Positions 52,557-57,158 of a stretch of DNA of 64,000 bases are shown piece after piece. The DNA comes from Escherichia coli (lineage in GTDB: Bacteria > Pseudomonadota > Gammaproteobacteria > Enterobacterales > Enterobacteriaceae). The stretch lies in NCBI RefSeq assembly GCF_036507355.1, contig NZ_AP027877.1; one strand, written 5' to 3'. The notes beneath the pieces were generated by a model. That model saw only the letters and a list, made by a program, of their open reading frames with translations. It did no database searches and was not told where the DNA came from. The translations under genes and the position numbers were made by a program. Numbering within the stretch: the stretch's first letter is position 1; every line of letters begins with the position of its first letter.

Positions 52557-52666
52557 TGTCCCATCTGTCCCGTTGTCCCATAGATTTTATATATATTGTA
52601 TTTCATATGGTTAGCTTGTTTTTTTATGGGACAAGAATGGGACAAAGCGGGACAGGTTTTTGTCCC
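52557..52666. repeat. Iteron module 1: three direct TGTCCC repeats, AT-rich spacer, three inverted GGGACA repeats (plus one more TGTCCC); candidate replication origin
   Basis: Hexamers at 52557, 52566, 52574 (TGTCCC) and 52628, 52639, 52649 (GGGACA), 52661 (TGTCCC); immediately downstream of the helicase gene. Confidence 0.6.
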
Positions 52667-52758
52667 ATTGAAGTTTTTTGTTTGAAACACATACAAATTT
52701 GGTTGGTGTAGGTGGGCTGGTCGCAAAAAAACACCCGCACAGTGGCGGGCATTGGTTC

Positions 52759-54465
52759 TCAATCTTCGAGGCTGTCACGATGGATTATGTAACATCTGAC
52801 GCGACCCAAACCGGGCAGATATCGACGATCTGGTTTGGTGATACCCTTCGCCTGTAAAACGCTGGCAGCTCGTCTGGCATCAAGTCCGGCAAAAATCACT
52901 TTCCAGCCTTCAACCGGGATAATGTACTCGTCATCTTTAATAAACCCAACTCGCGCCGTCGGTATCTCATCTGGTTTATTAGCGTCCTGAAAACGCGCCC
53001 CGTCACGCACTATGGTTTGTCTGATACGCTCGACGATCTCATTATCTTCATGGCTTTCCGTACCTCCTCTACGCTCAATCCATGCGGTAAAGCAGACTTT
53101 CGCCGCTTCTGTCGCAGTTCCCGGACTCCAACCCGTTATCTCAGAAGACAGTTCGCCAGCATAGGCCGCTATGGCGAACTTCTCAGCAACACGCCCGATC
53201 TGACCGGAAGGGTCTTCAGCTACAGAATTAAGAAAGGCCGATTTAAAATCGCGCCAGCCCTCCTTAATGGTGTCGTAATTGATAGTCAGGTGATCAAGCC
53301 ATGCGTTAAACGCTGTACCGTGATTTTCTCGTACTGCCTTGTCCAGACGGTCAGCAAACAAAGCGCCGTTTGCCTCTCCGTGAATCGTGTCGAAACAGGC
53401 AAATTCGCAGTTATCAGCAGGTATGTTAATCACTCGCATTTCCTGCCCGGCATATGTACTTTTCCGAACCGAATCAGCATGGGATTTGAGATCAATTTCA
53501 CCATTGGATAATAGCGCCAAACACCATTGCTGAATCTCTTTGGCTGTTCCGTTTTTGGTGCTTCGTTGCTTGCCTTTCCCATTCGGAAGCATGTACGCGA
53601 TTTCCCCGGCTTTGCTTGCGTCTACTTGTGCGATTTCATCAAGGCACAGAAGGCCGTCATTATGGCGTGCTGCGATACCTTCCAGCCCGTTATCTGTCGC
53701 ACGCCATGAGCGAATATATTCTTTGGGGTCGGAAATAACAGAAGCGGCAACCGTCATTGACCGGGATTTGCCTGAAGATGATGCCCCTACATAATGGAAG
53801 CAGAATCCATCAACTCCCAGCATGGTGAGCATAGGGGACAGGAACGCAGTAGATACCGCCAGAATCAGACGACTATTACCAACGCACAACGCCGCCACTT
53901 CATCGCGCCATGTCGCCAGGGTGCCGCAGGATGGCTCTGGCTTTACTCGGGCATTAACCTGATAGACAACCATATCTTTATCAATTGGGTTAAATGTCCG
54001 CACCGGGGTCACGTATACGGCAGGTTTAAACCAACCGCAGCGAGTAACGCAGGTTAACCGGCTTTGGTGGGATTGCCCTTTGAGATAACGGATGAACGCC
54101 TTCTCATCCCAGATACGCAGGCCGCCGTTAACCAGAATGCTAATGGCTTCAGCTCCTCCATTTGCGTAAAGTGAAGTCGCAGGCATCGCCCATTTCTTTG
54201 GCATCCCGTCACGGTCACACCATGACAGAAGTTTGCCCCACGACTCGTTATCCTTGTCTCTGGTTTCCGCAGTGACCTCAATAACATCAGATATACAGAC
54301 GGGTGCCGGATTGGGGTTTTTCTCCGTTGGTGCTCTGTAGAAGTAAACGCCAGCATCCCCGCGTTCCCTGTCGTACTCCCGATGTACCCAGTAAAACGGC
54401 GGCAGCTTTTCGGCTGGCGGGTTGTCTTTGTGGACTGATAAATCAATCACGTTGTTCGTGCTCAT
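52759..54465 (-). CDS. DUF927-type P-loop helicase (replicative helicase of P4 alpha / D5 type)
   Basis: Walker A-like GASSSGKS; start ATG (MSTNNVIDL) overlaps the primase stop (ATGA); original ORF 52759..54480. Confidence 0.7.
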   Translation of the reverse strand: MSTNNVIDLSVHKDNPPAEKLPPFYWVHREYDRERGDAGVYFYRAPTEKNPNPAPVCISDVIEVTAETRDKDNESWGKLLSWCDRDGMPKKWAMPATSLYANGGAEAISILVNGGLRIWDEKAFIRYLKGQSHQSRLTCVTRCGWFKPAVYVTPVRTFNPIDKDMVVYQVNARVKPEPSCGTLATWRDEVAALCVGNSRLILAVSTAFLSPMLTMLGVDGFCFHYVGASSSGKSRSMTVAASVISDPKEYIRSWRATDNGLEGIAARHNDGLLCLDEIAQVDASKAGEIAYMLPNGKGKQRSTKNGTAKEIQQWCLALLSNGEIDLKSHADSVRKSTYAGQEMRVINIPADNCEFACFDTIHGEANGALFADRLDKAVRENHGTAFNAWLDHLTINYDTIKEGWRDFKSAFLNSVAEDPSGQIGRVAEKFAIAAYAGELSSEITGWSPGTATEAAKVCFTAWIERRGGTESHEDNEIVERIRQTIVRDGARFQDANKPDEIPTARVGFIKDDEYIIPVEGWKVIFAGLDARRAASVLQAKGITKPDRRYLPGLGRVRCYIIHRDSLED

Positions 54466-55331
54466 GCCACTGCCTCCCATTTCTTGACCAGTTCATTTTT
54501 GTGATCGTTCCAGTCGCCATGTCTGGACGGGATTAGCAGCTCGCAACGGTAGCGACTTGCCGCATCAATGGCTTTAGTTACTCCCGGGTTGCCATCTGTA
54601 TTCGCATCATTATCGGCGGCAATGATGATGCGGGCGCGTGGAAATTCACTGCGCACACTCTCAGATACCTCTCGCAGGTTTCCGGCAGTAAAGGCGACAC
54701 AGACCGGGCAGCCCGTTACTTCTCGAACGGTGGCGGCGGTGGCATAGCCTTCAGCGATGAAAATGGTTTTGTCATTGACGACTAACCCGCCCAGCCAATA
54801 GCGTCCACCTTTCAATAGTGCGCCAGATTTAAAGCGCTTTGTGCCGTCCGGCATAATGTACTGAATGGACTGTACACTTCCGTACTGATCATGGATTGGA
54901 ATCAGTAACCAGTCACCAGATTGATAAATGCCATGCGCCCCAACACCTTTGCGCAATAGGTAAGGGTGATTATCACTGGCAGGAACTGCGCTACTAATCT
55001 TGGCTCTACATTCGGCAGCGGCGGCAACCTCAGCTTTACGCTGTATCGCTCCAATTGCCCGGCGTGCTTCCATCATCACGCGCTTACGTTCAATGCTGTT
55101 GACCTGTACACCATCGAGAAAGTGACACGCGGTTATGCCAGTTTTCCAGCTACCAAAAGCACAGCCCGCGCCATCAGGGAACGGGTAAGCCCAGCCATTA
55201 AGCGAGCCAGGTTTATCGCCCTCGATACGAAAGCGGGCAACGGTGCCGGGGATTAATTCCGGCAGTTCGCAAGGTATTACGCCAGCCTCGCGCATGGTGT
55301 CAGACAGGGATTGTCTTTGATGTGTAGTCAT
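54462..55331 (-). CDS. Toprim-domain DNA primase (P4 alpha N-terminal-like)
   Basis: ORF 54462..55388; ATG at 55331 (MTTHQRQSL) has an AGGAAA RBS; toprim-like acidic motif IIAADNDANTDGNPG. Confidence 0.65.
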   Translation of the reverse strand: MTTHQRQSLSDTMREAGVIPCELPELIPGTVARFRIEGDKPGSLNGWAYPFPDGAGCAFGSWKTGITACHFLDGVQVNSIERKRVMMEARRAIGAIQRKAEVAAAAECRAKISSAVPASDNHPYLLRKGVGAHGIYQSGDWLLIPIHDQYGSVQSIQYIMPDGTKRFKSGALLKGGRYWLGGLVVNDKTIFIAEGYATAATVREVTGCPVCVAFTAGNLREVSESVRSEFPRARIIIAADNDANTDGNPGVTKAIDAASRYRCELLIPSRHGDWNDHKNELVKKWEAVA

Positions 55332-55398
55332 ATATACTTTTCCTGTTACTGTGCTGGCGGGTCTGTCGCCAAACTTCACCGCCAGCAAGATTTAAAAG

Positions 55399-55860: not shown

Positions 55861-56030
55861 TTTTTGGCCTCCAGCCATGAGTTGATTTCTGTTGAAGACC
55901 ATGCTGTAACGCGTTCAGAAAGTTTTATGGGTTTTGGTATCTTCCCGGTTCTTGCCCAGCGCCAAAGAGAAGAAACGCTAATTCCCAGTTGGTTAGCCAG
56001 GTCTTTAGGGCGTAAATATTGCGTTTTCAT
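55857..56030 (-). CDS. alpA: AlpA-family phage transcriptional regulator / excisionase-like HTH protein
   Basis: 57-aa product MKTQYLRPKDLANQLGISVSSLWRWARTGKIPKPIKL... typical of AlpA. Confidence 0.8.
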   Translation of the reverse strand: MKTQYLRPKDLANQLGISVSSLWRWARTGKIPKPIKLSERVTAWSSTEINSWLEAKK

Positions 56031-56143
56031 TTGGTATACCTCGCTCAACGCACTGCCACTCAGTGCTACGACAGCAAAGATAAAGGCATCCAGTGGCAGA
56101 TATAATGCGCAGCAAAGTAGGTCTTCACTTTCAAAGTAGGTCT

Positions 56144-56995
56144 TCACTTTTGTGAGAATGTTTCAGGGAACCATTCTTGTAGTTGCTGCCTAAGTTTTTG
56201 GCATCTAGAATCATCTTTAATATTGATATCTATACCTTCCTTTGCGGCATACCTTTTTATCGCTTCAATTGTTGCGTCCAGAGTGATGGAGCCGCGTACC
56301 CCCTTACATTCTTCAATCTCATGCTTCAGAACGTATTCAGCTACCTTGCGGCGATTGGCGTGTATCTGAGCGTATCGGATAGTTCGCCCGTCGGTATTGT
56401 CACCAATCGTTTTTAGTGCCTGTTTTGCCTGTGCCGCTTCATAAACTCGCTCAATGTCTTCGGCAGACAGGAACGTTTCATTCATAGAAATAACAAGCGA
56501 GTTATCACCAGTAAAAGTGATGTCCAAACTCCCAACCCCATCAGGACGTTCGTCTATAGCCTCCAGATAATTATTAATGGTGTCCTTGTTTAACCTTATC
56601 GGCTCATTTGGCCTTATAGGAAAAGATGACGGTATGGCCCAGTAACCAGAAGCAATGCCAGTACACCAGAAACAATCTTCCTCAGTGGAAATATGGAAAT
56701 CGGTGCTGACTTTTGAAAGCTCAAGCCCTAACGGGTGAGGTCGATTTTTCGTGGCGCATCCCATATATAGCGCCTCGGCAATTTCTTTCGCATTGTTTTG
56801 GATTAACTCCCGGGAAAGAAAGCCTCCAAATGAACAAGGCTCGCCATTGAGGAGAGCATACAGATGGATCCGGCGCTCTTGATGGTAAGCAACCAACGTA
56901 GTAGGACTTACACCCAACAGCTCGCTTGCCTCAGCTATAGATACTGGCCCATCAGGTCTAACCCTTTTCTTTTTTTCCCAGATTGAAGCGCGCAT
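56144..56995 (-). CDS. Hypothetical 283-aa protein with N-terminal HTH-like segment
   Basis: ATG start; VSIAEASELLGVSPTTLVAYHQ resembles MerR/excisionase-type HTH; C-terminal 200 aa has no recognisable motif; located between int and alpA. Confidence 0.5.
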   Translation of the reverse strand: MRASIWEKKKRVRPDGPVSIAEASELLGVSPTTLVAYHQERRIHLYALLNGEPCSFGGFLSRELIQNNAKEIAEALYMGCATKNRPHPLGLELSKVSTDFHISTEEDCFWCTGIASGYWAIPSSFPIRPNEPIRLNKDTINNYLEAIDERPDGVGSLDITFTGDNSLVISMNETFLSAEDIERVYEAAQAKQALKTIGDNTDGRTIRYAQIHANRRKVAEYVLKHEIEECKGVRGSITLDATIEAIKRYAAKEGIDINIKDDSRCQKLRQQLQEWFPETFSQK

Positions 56996-57049
56996 TTTTC
57001 ACCCTGCCTGTCTTTTATTTGTTCGATTGATGTTCGGGCCAGAAATTTT

Positions 57050-57158
57050 TGTCCCGTCCTGTCCCGTCTTTTGTCCCGGTTTTGTCCCATAACCATTCTT
57101 GTAACCAGCTGTATTTATTGAGTCTTTACAAAACGGGACAAACGGGACAGATGGGACA
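57050..57158. repeat. Iteron module 2: four direct TGTCCC repeats, spacer, three inverted GGGACA repeats; paralogue of module 1
   Basis: TGTCCC at 57050, 57060, 57072, 57083; GGGACA at 57135, 57144, 57153; same architecture as 52557..52666. Confidence 0.6.

What the first reader, a model, noticed from the sequence alone, without database searches (positions are those of the whole stretch)
52557..57158. Two paralogous iteron modules (TGTCCC direct repeats / GGGACA inverted repeats) about 4.5 kb apart, resembling a P4 ori plus crr arrangement
Module 1 (52557..52666) has three TGTCCC hexamers at roughly one-helical-turn spacing, an AT-rich spacer of about 45 bp, then three GGGACA hexamers in inverted orientation. 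Module 2 (57050..57158) has the same architecture with four plus three hexamers. Module 1 sits just downstream of the helicase gene, where satellite and plasmid origins are typically found. Phage P4 is known to need two separated repeat-containing cis sites (ori and crr) bound by its primase-helicase. Alternatively these are operator arrays for AlpA or the HTH protein, since each module lies in the upstream region of a minus-strand gene (the 283-aa gene and the secreted-protein gene).
Basis: partly seen in the sequence, partly recalled or inferred. Interest (0 to 1): 0.6.

Follow-up and report, generated by a model that had tools for sequence, protein, structure and literature searches.

The report
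Split replication origin of satellite island
Two mirror-image clusters of the repeat TGTCCC flank the replication genes of an 8.1-kb mobile island in E. coli; they are most likely docking sites for the island's own replication helicase, which makes this a known kind of origin split into two parts 4.4 kb apart.

Summary
TGTCCC/GGGACA occurs 7 times in 52557-52666 and 7 times in 57050-57158. These are the only two such k-mer clusters in the 64-kb window. The two modules are inverted paralogues sharing a 25-nt exact inverted match.

They lie in an 8,135-bp island (50504-58638) inserted in the 3' end of yicC, with this gene order: int, module 2, 283-aa gene, alpA, 167-aa gene, Toprim primase, DUF927 helicase, terminator, module 1, cargo.

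The helicase folds like SaPIbov1 Rep and SCCmec Cch and has a winged-helix C-terminal domain. Module 1 has the published anatomy and position of a SaPI/PICI origin.

The repeats do not track AlpA, the 283-aa protein or the integrase, all of which are replaced in relatives that keep TGTCCC. In homologues, the repeat sequence switches together with the helicase C-terminus.

Among 125 related loci, most have two inverted modules side by side after the helicase gene. Twelve of 13 with a single module there carry the second, inverted module kilobases away, in about ten loci right after int.

The layout mirrors P4 ori plus crr, but the helicase is of a different family. Binding and origin activity are inferred, not shown. 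I rate this a new variant of a known kind.

The parts
50504..58638 (-). 8,135-bp integrative island inserted in the 3' end of yicC. All of its genes are on the minus strand.
   Evidence: The K-12 empty site aligns to the left junction up to 50503 and continues at 58639. The att-like direct repeat is 50463-50503 / 58598-58638 (D1).
50487..50503 (.). Left copy of the att core, TCAATGTTCTGAATCTG. This is the original yicC 3' end.
58622..58638 (.). Right copy of the att core, TCAATATTCTGAATCTG. It overlaps the stop region of yicC as rebuilt by the island.
57182..58441 (-). Tyrosine integrase (419 aa) with an arm-type DNA-binding domain
   Evidence: PHROG 1 integrase, E 1.2e-71; RefSeq annotation of identical islands
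57159..57181 (.). Conserved A-rich box (AAAAAAACAATATTGAAAA) between the int stop codon and module 2
   Evidence: Nearly invariant in 8 variants, including L004, whose integrase is 24% identical. Function unknown.
57135..57158 (+). Module 2, int-proximal arm: 3 x GGGACA at 57135, 57144 and 57153
   Evidence: Invariant in 8 aligned variants. With its flank it is the exact inverted copy of the module 1 arm 52550-52574 (I1).
57089..57134 (.). Module 2 spacer, 46 bp, 70% A+T
   Evidence: Its sequence varies among variants while the arms are conserved.
57050..57088 (+). Module 2, operon-proximal arm: 4 x TGTCCC at 57050, 57060, 57072 and 57083. It ends 55 bp upstream of the start of the 283-aa gene.
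   Evidence: Copy number is 3-5 in variants, through indels of whole 10-11-bp units.
56144..56995 (-). 283-aa protein with a weak N-terminal MerR-type HTH; first gene after module 2
   Evidence: Pfam MerR, E 2.9e-4. Unrelated proteins take its place in L003 and L004, which keep both modules.
55857..56033 (-). AlpA-family HTH regulator (58 aa; the ORF extends to 56147)
   Evidence: PHROG 66/2790 excisionase and regulator; RefSeq annotation
55399..55902 (-). 167-aa protein of unknown function
   Evidence: No family hit. 51% identical in L004.
54462..55388 (-). Toprim primase. The ORF is 308 aa; identical islands are annotated with 289 aa.
   Evidence: PHROG 2249 DNA primase, E 1e-52. 36% identity to the primase part of P4 alpha, E 3e-22.
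52759..54465 (-). DUF927 MCM-like replicative helicase/initiator (568 aa) with a C-terminal winged-helix domain (about residues 490-568)
52730..52753 (-). Intrinsic terminator of the replication operon, 6 bp after the helicase stop codon
   Evidence: 9-pair stem followed by TTTTTTT
52628..52666 (+). Module 1, helicase-proximal arm: 3 x GGGACA (52628, 52639, 52649) plus one TGTCCC (52661)
52580..52627 (.). Module 1 spacer, 48 bp, 83% A+T, containing TATATATAT. This is the likeliest unwinding site.
   Evidence: It ties for the most A+T-rich 40-mer of the island.
52550..52579 (+). Module 1, distal arm: TTTTGCT followed by 3 x TGTCCC (52557, 52566, 52574)
   Evidence: DNA homology with L004 ends at the distal edge of this module.
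50648..52497 (-). Cargo genes of unknown function: 151 aa with a signal-peptide-like N-terminus, 134 aa, 62 aa and 97 aa
   Evidence: ORFs. No hits in PHROGs, NCBIfam or PADLOC.

Best explanation
Both modules are arrays of binding sites (iterons, consensus YTGTCCCRT) for the island's own initiator. That initiator is the DUF927 MCM-like helicase, which reads the sites with its C-terminal winged-helix domain. Together the modules form the cis-acting replication apparatus of a small PICI-like satellite or integrative island.

Module 1 is the SaPI/PICI-type origin. It lies 93-200 bp after the helicase stop codon, just past the operon terminator. Two opposed sets of iterons flank its very A+T-rich spacer, where the self-loading helicase would melt the DNA and the Toprim primase would prime.

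Module 2 is an inverted copy of that structure, placed 24 bp after the int stop codon at the head of the replication operon. I think it acts as the second part of a split origin, in one of two ways. It could be a second helicase-loading pad. Or it could be a crr-like partner brought to module 1 by Rep-mediated looping. Because it fills the int to 283-aa-gene intergenic region, Rep bound there may also dampen transcription entering the operon.

Shown: the anatomy, paralogy, conservation and position of the modules; the fold of the helicase; family-wide co-variation of repeat sequence with the helicase C-terminus; and the complementarity between single and double arrays.

Inferred: that Rep binds these sites, that module 1 fires as an origin, and what module 2 contributes.
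For: 1. Clustering far beyond chance, and inverted paralogy.

2. Each module fits the published anatomy of SaPI and Gram-negative PICI origins. That anatomy is 6-12 iterons directly 3' of rep, an A+T-rich centre, and at least 2 iterons on each side pointing in opposite directions. Rep binds them through a C-terminal winged helix, apparently as two hexamers (PMC9371898; PMC6092414; PMC7581432).

4. The binder can be narrowed down. L004 has identical TGTCCC arrays at both positions. Its helicase and primase are 80% identical to the window's. Its integrase is 24% identical, and its AlpA and the protein replacing the 283-aa protein show no detectable similarity. E. coli L003 keeps both arrays with an unrelated protein in place of the 283-aa protein.

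5. Specificity maps to the helicase C-terminus in homologues. The Aeromonas helicases of L020 and L023 are 92-100% identical over about 420 aligned positions but 35% identical in the last ~57. Their iterons differ (GGCTAC against GGTAAC). DNA homology breaks about 240 bp before the stop codon and resumes after the origin.

6. The arms are conserved while the spacer drifts. Copy number changes by whole 10-11-bp units, so the region is not coding.

7. Family survey of 125 non-redundant loci.
- 67 have a double array of about 9-14 sites over 170-440 bp after the helicase gene, many of them visibly two abutting inverted modules.
- 13 have a single module of about 6-7 sites in about 100 bp, and 12 of these 13 carry a second module elsewhere. 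Only 3 of the 67 double-array loci do (Fisher p = 9e-11).
- The second module lies within about 50 bp of the int stop codon in the window, L004, L075, L081, L084, L088 and L105; the int-side arrays in L129 and L172 were not checked that closely.
- In all 18 split loci the best alignment between the two modules is inverted. In 7 of them it is an inverted repeat of 103-153 bp at 88-100% identity.

8. A relative with the double array, phage phiAH14b, is a described satellite.
Against: - No binding or replication data exist for this element. Everything functional rests on homology and comparative anatomy.
- The k-mer survey is heuristic. The single/double thresholds were set after seeing the data, de-duplication was crude, and 45 of the 125 loci were unclassifiable.
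- Each window module is dyad-symmetric and could be a complete origin on its own, so the split-origin reading fits relatives such as L081 better than it fits the window.
- Module 2 has the less A+T-rich spacer and sits where the operon promoter must be, which fits a purely regulatory or copy-control role equally well.
- No sigma-70 promoter, DnaA box or IHF site was found that would anchor either reading.
Confidence: 0.7

Rival explanations
1. Module 1 is the only origin. Module 2 also binds Rep but serves purely for control. It would autorepress the replication operon by sitting on its promoter or by blocking read-through from int. Alternatively it would titrate or handcuff Rep to limit copy number, like incA of P1 or incC of F.
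For: Module 2 fills the 186-bp int to 283-aa-gene intergenic region and ends 55 bp before the start codon. Its spacer is less A+T-rich than that of module 1 (70% against 83%). In some relatives the second module lies inside the 5' coding end of the helicase gene, where bound Rep could act as a roadblock. Iteron-based autoregulation and handcuffing are classic in iteron plasmids (my own knowledge; review PMC4980987 listed).
Against: Elements with a double array after the helicase gene have no iterons at the operon head (0-1 k-mer hits after int in about 35 loci), so operon autoregulation through iterons is not a family feature. The second module appears only where the downstream array is single, which suggests it substitutes for a missing origin part. 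In two loci the second module lies downstream of the helicase gene, 0.6-1.2 kb beyond the first module (L150, L086), where it cannot be a promoter operator. Strict inverted orientation in 18 of 18 loci is not needed for titration.
Confidence: 0.22
2. The arrays are operators for a transcription factor of the island, either AlpA or the 283-aa HTH protein, and control the two downstream genes.
For: Each module lies upstream of a minus-strand gene. AlpA-type regulators act on promoters of such islands (PMC10111431).
Against: L004 and L003 keep TGTCCC arrays at both sites, but the L004 AlpA and the proteins replacing the 283-aa protein in L003 and L004 show no detectable similarity. Across the family the arrays follow the helicase gene and change with its C-terminus, including in loci without alpA nearby (L007). 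The gene downstream of module 1 differs among E. coli variants while the array persists.
Confidence: 0.04
3. The arrays are integrase arm-type sites or another recombination or packaging signal (pac-like or cos-like) rather than replication sites.
For: The integrase has an arm-type DNA-binding domain. Module 2 abuts the int gene in about ten loci. One stray GGGACA lies in the int-att interval at 58491.
Against: The modules lie 1.45 kb and 2.05 kb from the att cores, whereas annotated P4 arm repeats lie within about 450 bp of the core. The integrase differs (24% identity; P4-like in L081 and others) while the motif follows the helicase. The stray site at 58491 is absent from L002 and L003. No terminase gene is present. 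Packaging signals cannot be formally excluded.
Confidence: 0.03
4. The modules matter as nucleic-acid hairpins, for example as a terminator after int or a cruciform, and the hexamers are simply the stem.
For: Both modules fold into long hairpins on either strand, with z-scores of -4.7 to -6.4.
Against: This follows automatically from opposed repeat arrays. No U-tract follows the module 2 hairpin, and a separate canonical terminator already ends the helicase operon. Modules in relatives such as L081 are mostly direct repeats (pattern >>> < >>) and would not form such hairpins. Arm spacings differ between the two arms (9-9 against 10-12-11).
Confidence: 0.02

Closest known systems
SaPI / PICI replication origin with its Rep helicase (SaPIbov1 Rep-ori; EcCICFT073 pri-rep-ori)
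   Same: Iterons lie immediately 3' of the initiator-helicase gene. Two opposed sets flank an A+T-rich region. The initiator is a self-loading MCM-like helicase with a C-terminal winged helix. The window helicase matches SaPIbov1 Rep in fold, both full-length and in the C-terminal domain. The gene order int, alpA, pri, rep, ori, all in one direction, is that of Gram-negative PICIs.
   Different: The papers I read describe one origin per element. Here a second, inverted origin-like module lies 4.4 kb upstream, just after int. The island is smaller (8.1 kb) than the 10-20 kb given for Gram-negative PICIs and has no recognisable capsid, packaging or interference gene.
Phage-plasmid/satellite P4: ori plus crr bound by the alpha protein
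   Same: Two separated cis sites share one iteron. One lies directly 3' of the primase-helicase gene and the other upstream of the vis/alpA-to-helicase operon, 4.4-5 kb apart. The circular order is the same: site, operon, site, attP, int. Each 120-bp crr unit has the pattern ++ -- +, compared with +++ --- + in module 1. The primase domain is homologous, and int and Vis/AlpA are distantly related.
   Different: BLASTP finds no similarity between the helicase part and P4 alpha. The primase and helicase are separate proteins here. There are no sid, delta, psu, epsilon or cI homologues. In P4 the site 3' of the helicase gene is the enhancer-like crr and the upstream site is ori (annotation, plus my own knowledge). 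Here the downstream module looks more origin-like. From memory, crr works in either orientation, whereas here the inverted orientation is invariant.
SCCmec Cch (DUF927) replicative helicase
   Same: Best structural match (Foldseek E 1.6e-24, TM 0.69/0.76) and the only NCBIfam hit, although at 68.5 bits it is far below that model's curated cutoff of 700 bits. Same Pfam family.
   Different: I found no origin described for the Cch-type (DUF927) SCC operons in the one paper I read (PMC7581432), which proposes a putative origin only for the unrelated Cch2-type operons. It sits in a Gram-positive cassette that uses serine recombinases.
Distant iteron sites acting together in plasmids (R6K gamma with alpha/beta origins through pi-mediated looping; P1 incA and F incC control arrays)
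   Same: Initiator-binding repeats at two places kilobases apart on one small replicon, acting through initiator-mediated DNA looping or handcuffing (my own knowledge, not tested here).
   Different: Those initiators are unrelated Rep/pi proteins that recruit host DnaB. Here the initiator is itself the helicase. The resemblance is one of logic only.

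Membership tests
SaPI/PICI-type Rep-ori replicon | Iteron array immediately 3' of the initiator-helicase gene | tested here: met
   Module 1 begins 93 bp after the helicase stop codon, just past the terminator. The same position holds in about 80 of 125 homologous loci.
SaPI/PICI-type Rep-ori replicon | Two sets of iterons in opposite orientation flanking an A+T-rich region, 6-12 iterons in total | tested here: met
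   Module 1 has 4+3 sites around a 48-bp spacer at 83% A+T. Module 2 has 3+4 sites around a 46-bp spacer at 70% A+T. The definition comes from PMC9371898 and PMC6092414.
SaPI/PICI-type Rep-ori replicon | Initiator is a self-loading MCM-like helicase with a C-terminal winged-helix origin-binding domain | tested here: met
SaPI/PICI-type Rep-ori replicon | Rep binds the iterons specifically, and rep plus ori drives autonomous replication | not testable with these tools
   Indirect support only: iterons and the helicase C-terminus are swapped together in L020 against L023.
SaPI/PICI-type Rep-ori replicon | A single origin locus per element (as described in the papers read) | tested here: not met
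   A second, inverted module lies 4.4 kb away. For this reason I file the finding as a variant.
Gram-negative PICI (phage-inducible chromosomal island) | int, alpA and pri/rep transcribed in one direction, with its own att site | tested here: met
Gram-negative PICI (phage-inducible chromosomal island) | Size of 10-20 kb with capsid, packaging or interference genes | tested here: not met
   The island is 8,135 bp, and its cargo proteins have no family hits.
Gram-negative PICI (phage-inducible chromosomal island) | Induction and packaging by a helper phage | not testable with these tools
   No close relative occurs in IMG/VR (best 37-39% identity). The distant relative phiAH14b is a described satellite.
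P4-like satellite with ori + crr | Two separated cis sites carrying the same iteron, one 3' of the primase-helicase gene and one upstream of the operon | tested here: met
   Window coordinates compared with the P4 annotation
P4-like satellite with ori + crr | Alpha-type initiator: a primase, helicase and origin-binding domain fused in one P4-family protein | tested here: not met
   The helicase has no BLASTP similarity to alpha. Only the primase is homologous, and the two are separate genes.
P4-like satellite with ori + crr | P4 core genes sid, delta, psu, epsilon and cI | tested here: not met
   BLASTP of the island ORFs against P4 proteins hits only int, vis and the alpha primase domain. No C4/isrK-type RNA was found.
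P4-like satellite with ori + crr | Both sites required in cis for replication | not testable with these tools
   Requires deletion analysis

The most novel reading that the evidence does not exclude
Origins of DUF927-helicase replicons may be built from two separable, mirror-image half-origins. Each would hold about six iterons and serve as a loading pad for one Rep hexamer, whose six winged-helix domains would read the six sites. The halves are usually adjacent, but they can work when 0.6 to 9.5 kb apart, provided their inverted orientation is kept. In this E. coli island the two helicases of a bidirectional replisome would then be loaded 4.4 kb apart, or brought together by looping. P4's ori/crr would be a convergent instance of the same design.
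Probability: 0.25. Interest if true: 0.75.

Novelty: new variant of a known kind. Interest (0 to 1): 0.55.

Why it matters
If the two modules work together, this island and about 17 related split loci offer a natural experiment on how self-loading MCM-like helicases are placed on DNA. The same initiator family uses origins whose two mirror halves are either fused or kilobases apart. That makes several questions directly testable. Does one hexamer load per module? Is the double hexamer assembled by looping? Why is orientation fixed? It would also explain, by analogy, the long-puzzling need of P4 for crr.

There is a practical point too. Origin prediction for PICI-like satellites should look for a second array, often right after int. 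The unit that is exchanged between elements appears to be the helicase C-terminal domain together with its iterons.

Tried and rejected
- **Rfam**, permissive scan of 49000-60000: no RNA family, so there is no P4-like C4/isrK immunity RNA.
- **Promoter scan**: no sigma-70-like promoter in or next to either module, so I could not place the operon promoter.
- **Host-factor sites**: no DnaA box (1 mismatch or fewer), IHF consensus or GATC in either module.
- **Cargo proteins**, the 283-aa protein and the 167-aa protein: nothing in PHROGs, NCBIfam or PADLOC.
- **IMG/VR**: no close relative, only helicases at 39% identity or less, so there is no direct evidence that this island is packaged.
- **Plasmid and phage collections**: only distant helicase homologues (under 40%). 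The small plasmid pTAO100 also carries RepM, so it says nothing about autonomy.
- **Primary P4 crr literature**: not in the searchable library. Statements about crr function rest on the GenBank annotation and on my own knowledge.
- **Hairpin/terminator reading**: rejected. See the rival explanations.
- **Arm-site reading**: rejected on distance from att and lack of co-variation with the integrase.

Full report
**Observation**

- Module 1: TGTCCC at 52557, 52566 and 52574; a 48-bp spacer; GGGACA at 52628, 52639 and 52649.
- Module 2: TGTCCC at 57050, 57060, 57072 and 57083; a 46-bp spacer; GGGACA at 57135, 57144 and 57153.

The window-wide count is unremarkable (28 against 24 expected), so the signal is the clustering. 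A Poisson estimate for 7 copies in 110 bp is about 6e-11 for the whole window. The longer motif TGTCCCRT is five-fold enriched, and 12 of its 15 copies are in the modules. A blind scan for any 6-mer present 5 or more times within 130 bp returns only these two places in 64 kb.

The modules are inverted paralogues. 52550-52574 is the exact reverse complement of 57141-57165, flanking TTTTGCT included, and the other arms pair at 87%.

**Context**

The region is an E. coli chromosome: pyrE, rph, yicC, then the island, then dinD and yicG. Aligning the K-12 empty site fixes the island at 50504-58638, or 8,135 bp. It is bounded by a 17-bp att core and inserted in the 3' end of yicC, which the island rebuilds.

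All island genes are on the minus strand, in this order:
1. integrase
2. module 2
3. 283-aa protein with a weak MerR-type HTH
4. AlpA
5. 167-aa protein
6. Toprim primase
7. DUF927 helicase
8. a strong intrinsic terminator
9. module 1
10. four small cargo genes with no family hits

Module 2 starts 24 bp after the int stop codon and ends 55 bp before the next start codon. Module 1 starts 93 bp after the helicase stop codon.

**Conservation**

The module 2 region occurs in 34 of 5,426 complete E. coli genomes and the module 1 region in 24. An alignment of eight variants at 70-100% identity gives three results.
- The GGGACA arm is invariant and the TGTCCC arm is conserved.
- The spacer is free to vary.
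- Copy number changes by whole 10-11-bp units, so the region is not coding.

A metagenomic relative at a different integration site (L004, helicase 80% identical) has both arrays with the same hexamer, again as inverted copies. In some E. coli strains (PI24) and in Shimwellia, the helicase-side module is a fuller inverted copy of the int-side module, spacer included.

**Which protein reads the repeats**

L004 shares the hexamer. Its integrase is 24% identical to the window's, and its AlpA and the protein at the position of the 283-aa gene show no detectable similarity. Its primase and helicase are 80% identical. E. coli L003 also keeps both arrays with an unrelated protein in place of the 283-aa one.

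Aeromonas homologues give direct comparative support. The helicases of L020 and L023 are 92-100% identical for about 420 aligned positions and 35% identical in the last ~57, and their iterons differ (GGCTAC against GGTAAC). The DNA homology breaks about 240 bp before the stop codon and resumes beyond the origin. Pairs with the same iteron keep similar C-termini.

**Family survey**

I collected 80 genomic loci and 80 IMG/VR loci encoding helicase homologues, most of them 33-41% identical to the window's, plus closer loci. For each I asked which 6-mer is most repeated around the helicase stop codon and where else it clusters. After crude de-duplication there were 125 loci.

| Class | Loci | With a second module elsewhere |
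|---|---|---|
| Double array after the helicase gene (about 9-14 sites over 170-440 bp) | 67 | 3 |
| Single module (about 6-7 sites in about 100 bp) | 13 | 12 |
| Weak or ambiguous | 45 | not assessed |

- Many double arrays are visibly two abutting mirror-image modules of the form >><>>> <<<><<. The described satellite phage phiAH14b has this form.
- The difference between single and double arrays gives Fisher p = 9e-11.
- The second module lies within about 50 bp of the int stop codon in the window, L004, L075, L081, L084, L088 and L105. L129 and L172 also carry an int-side array, which I did not place that precisely. These loci span helicases under 40% identical and different integrase clades.
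- It lies inside the 5' coding extension of the helicase gene in L005-L008 and L082.
- It lies 0.6-1.4 kb downstream in L086, L150 and L070.
- None of the roughly 35 double-array loci with an identified integrase has the motif after int.
- In all 18 split loci the best alignment between the two modules is inverted. In 7 of them the modules are inverted repeats of 103-153 bp at 88-100% identity.

The simplest description is one bipartite, mirror-symmetric origin whose halves can be separated by 0 to about 9.5 kb. In the window the segment that separates them on the circle is cargo, attP and int on one side and the replication operon on the other.

**Comparison with the known**

Module 1 meets the published anatomical definition of a SaPI / Gram-negative PICI origin. 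On anatomy alone, so does module 2.

The P4 record annotates crr directly 3' of alpha, and the ori type-1 repeats upstream of the vis-to-alpha operon about 5 kb away, with attP and int following crr on the circle. A crr unit has the repeat pattern ++ -- +. But BLASTP finds no similarity between the helicase and P4 alpha. Only the primase is homologous, and no other P4 core gene or RNA is present. So the element works like P4 in layout, is a member of the SaPIbov1-Rep/Cch helicase family, and fits best as a small PICI-like island.

**Mechanism and rivals**

My preferred reading (confidence 0.7) is that both modules are Rep-binding arrays forming the island's cis replication apparatus.
- Module 1 is the likeliest melting site. 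Its spacer is 83% A+T and contains TATATATAT, and it lies in the canonical position.
- Module 2 is a second loading pad or a crr-like partner, and may also damp transcription into the operon.

The main rival (0.22) is that module 2 is only a control site for autorepression or handcuffing. Its position at the operon head and its less A+T-rich spacer fit that. The complementarity between single and double arrays, the downstream positions in some relatives and the invariant inverted orientation argue against it.

The operator, arm-site or packaging, and hairpin readings are each under 5%. The hairpin potential (z = -4.7 to -6.4) is an automatic by-product of opposed arrays, and relatives whose modules are mostly direct repeats do not share it.

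**Caveats**

- Nothing functional was measured.
- The survey thresholds were chosen after inspection.
- One third of the loci were unclassifiable.
- The window's modules are each dyad-symmetric and may be two full origins rather than two halves.
- Primary P4 replication papers were not available in the library, so statements about crr function beyond the GenBank annotation come from my own knowledge.

**Novelty**

The origin type and the P4 precedent are known. I did not find, in the papers available, any description of a PICI-type, DUF927-helicase replicon with its iteron array split into two inverted modules. Nor did I find the family-wide rule that a single downstream module is accompanied by a distant mirror copy, often right after int. 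I therefore rate it a new variant of a known kind, of moderate interest.

Noticed in passing
window 49439-50273 (minus strand): dinD, next to the island, is disrupted. It has two 1-bp deletions relative to strain J6, and its 5' third is a diverged, mosaic allele only about 55% identical.
   Followed up: partly
window 31701-31795 and about 19000-28000: A tRNA-Sec (selC) gene lies on the minus strand near a long block of 36-40% G+C in an otherwise 50-55% G+C region. This is possibly a selC-linked genomic island. A block of 61-62% G+C lies at about 15000-18000.
   Followed up: no
window 56113-56150: Perfect 19-bp tandem duplication (CAAAGTAGGTCTTCACTTT x2) at the junction between the stop codon of the 283-aa gene and the start of the long AlpA ORF (D8). 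It may explain why the AlpA ORF here is 96 aa against 57-59 aa as annotated in relatives.
   Followed up: no
window 57159-57181: The A-rich box AAAAAAACAATATTGAAAA between the int stop codon and module 2 is nearly invariant in eight variants. That includes L004, whose integrase is only 24% identical, so the box travels with the iteron module rather than with int. Function unknown.
   Followed up: partly
L005 4089-4193; L007 5107-5201; L006 10092-10195; L008 10027-10043; L082 311-393: In distant relatives one iteron module is embedded in the 5' coding extension of the helicase gene, so the repeats are translated (peptide VSxVSxCP from GTGTCC units). The reading frame of L005 also runs through its 3' module.
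   Followed up: partly
L005 163-236 and 2638-2692: Six direct GCGGCACA repeats lie just upstream of int, and an alternating AATTCA/TGAATT array lies upstream of alpA. Both differ from that element's iterons. They are candidate integrase arm sites and AlpA or repressor operators.
   Followed up: no
window 58558-58580 and 50420-50450: The island carries its own terminator for the rebuilt yicC 3' end. The original yicC terminator is left behind at the other junction.
   Followed up: partly
L150 6159-6995; L081 4945-5055 and 9770-9880: In several split relatives the two modules are 88-100% identical (100% over 153 bp in L150), yet they differ between elements. This points to concerted evolution or gene conversion between the two copies.
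   Followed up: partly
L090 (E. coli PI24) 4345-4453, compared with window 52557-52666: Two alternative versions of the helicase-side module circulate in otherwise near-identical E. coli islands. One is the window type, with the TATATATA spacer. The other is a fuller inverted copy of the int-side module. The cargo downstream also differs.
   Followed up: partly
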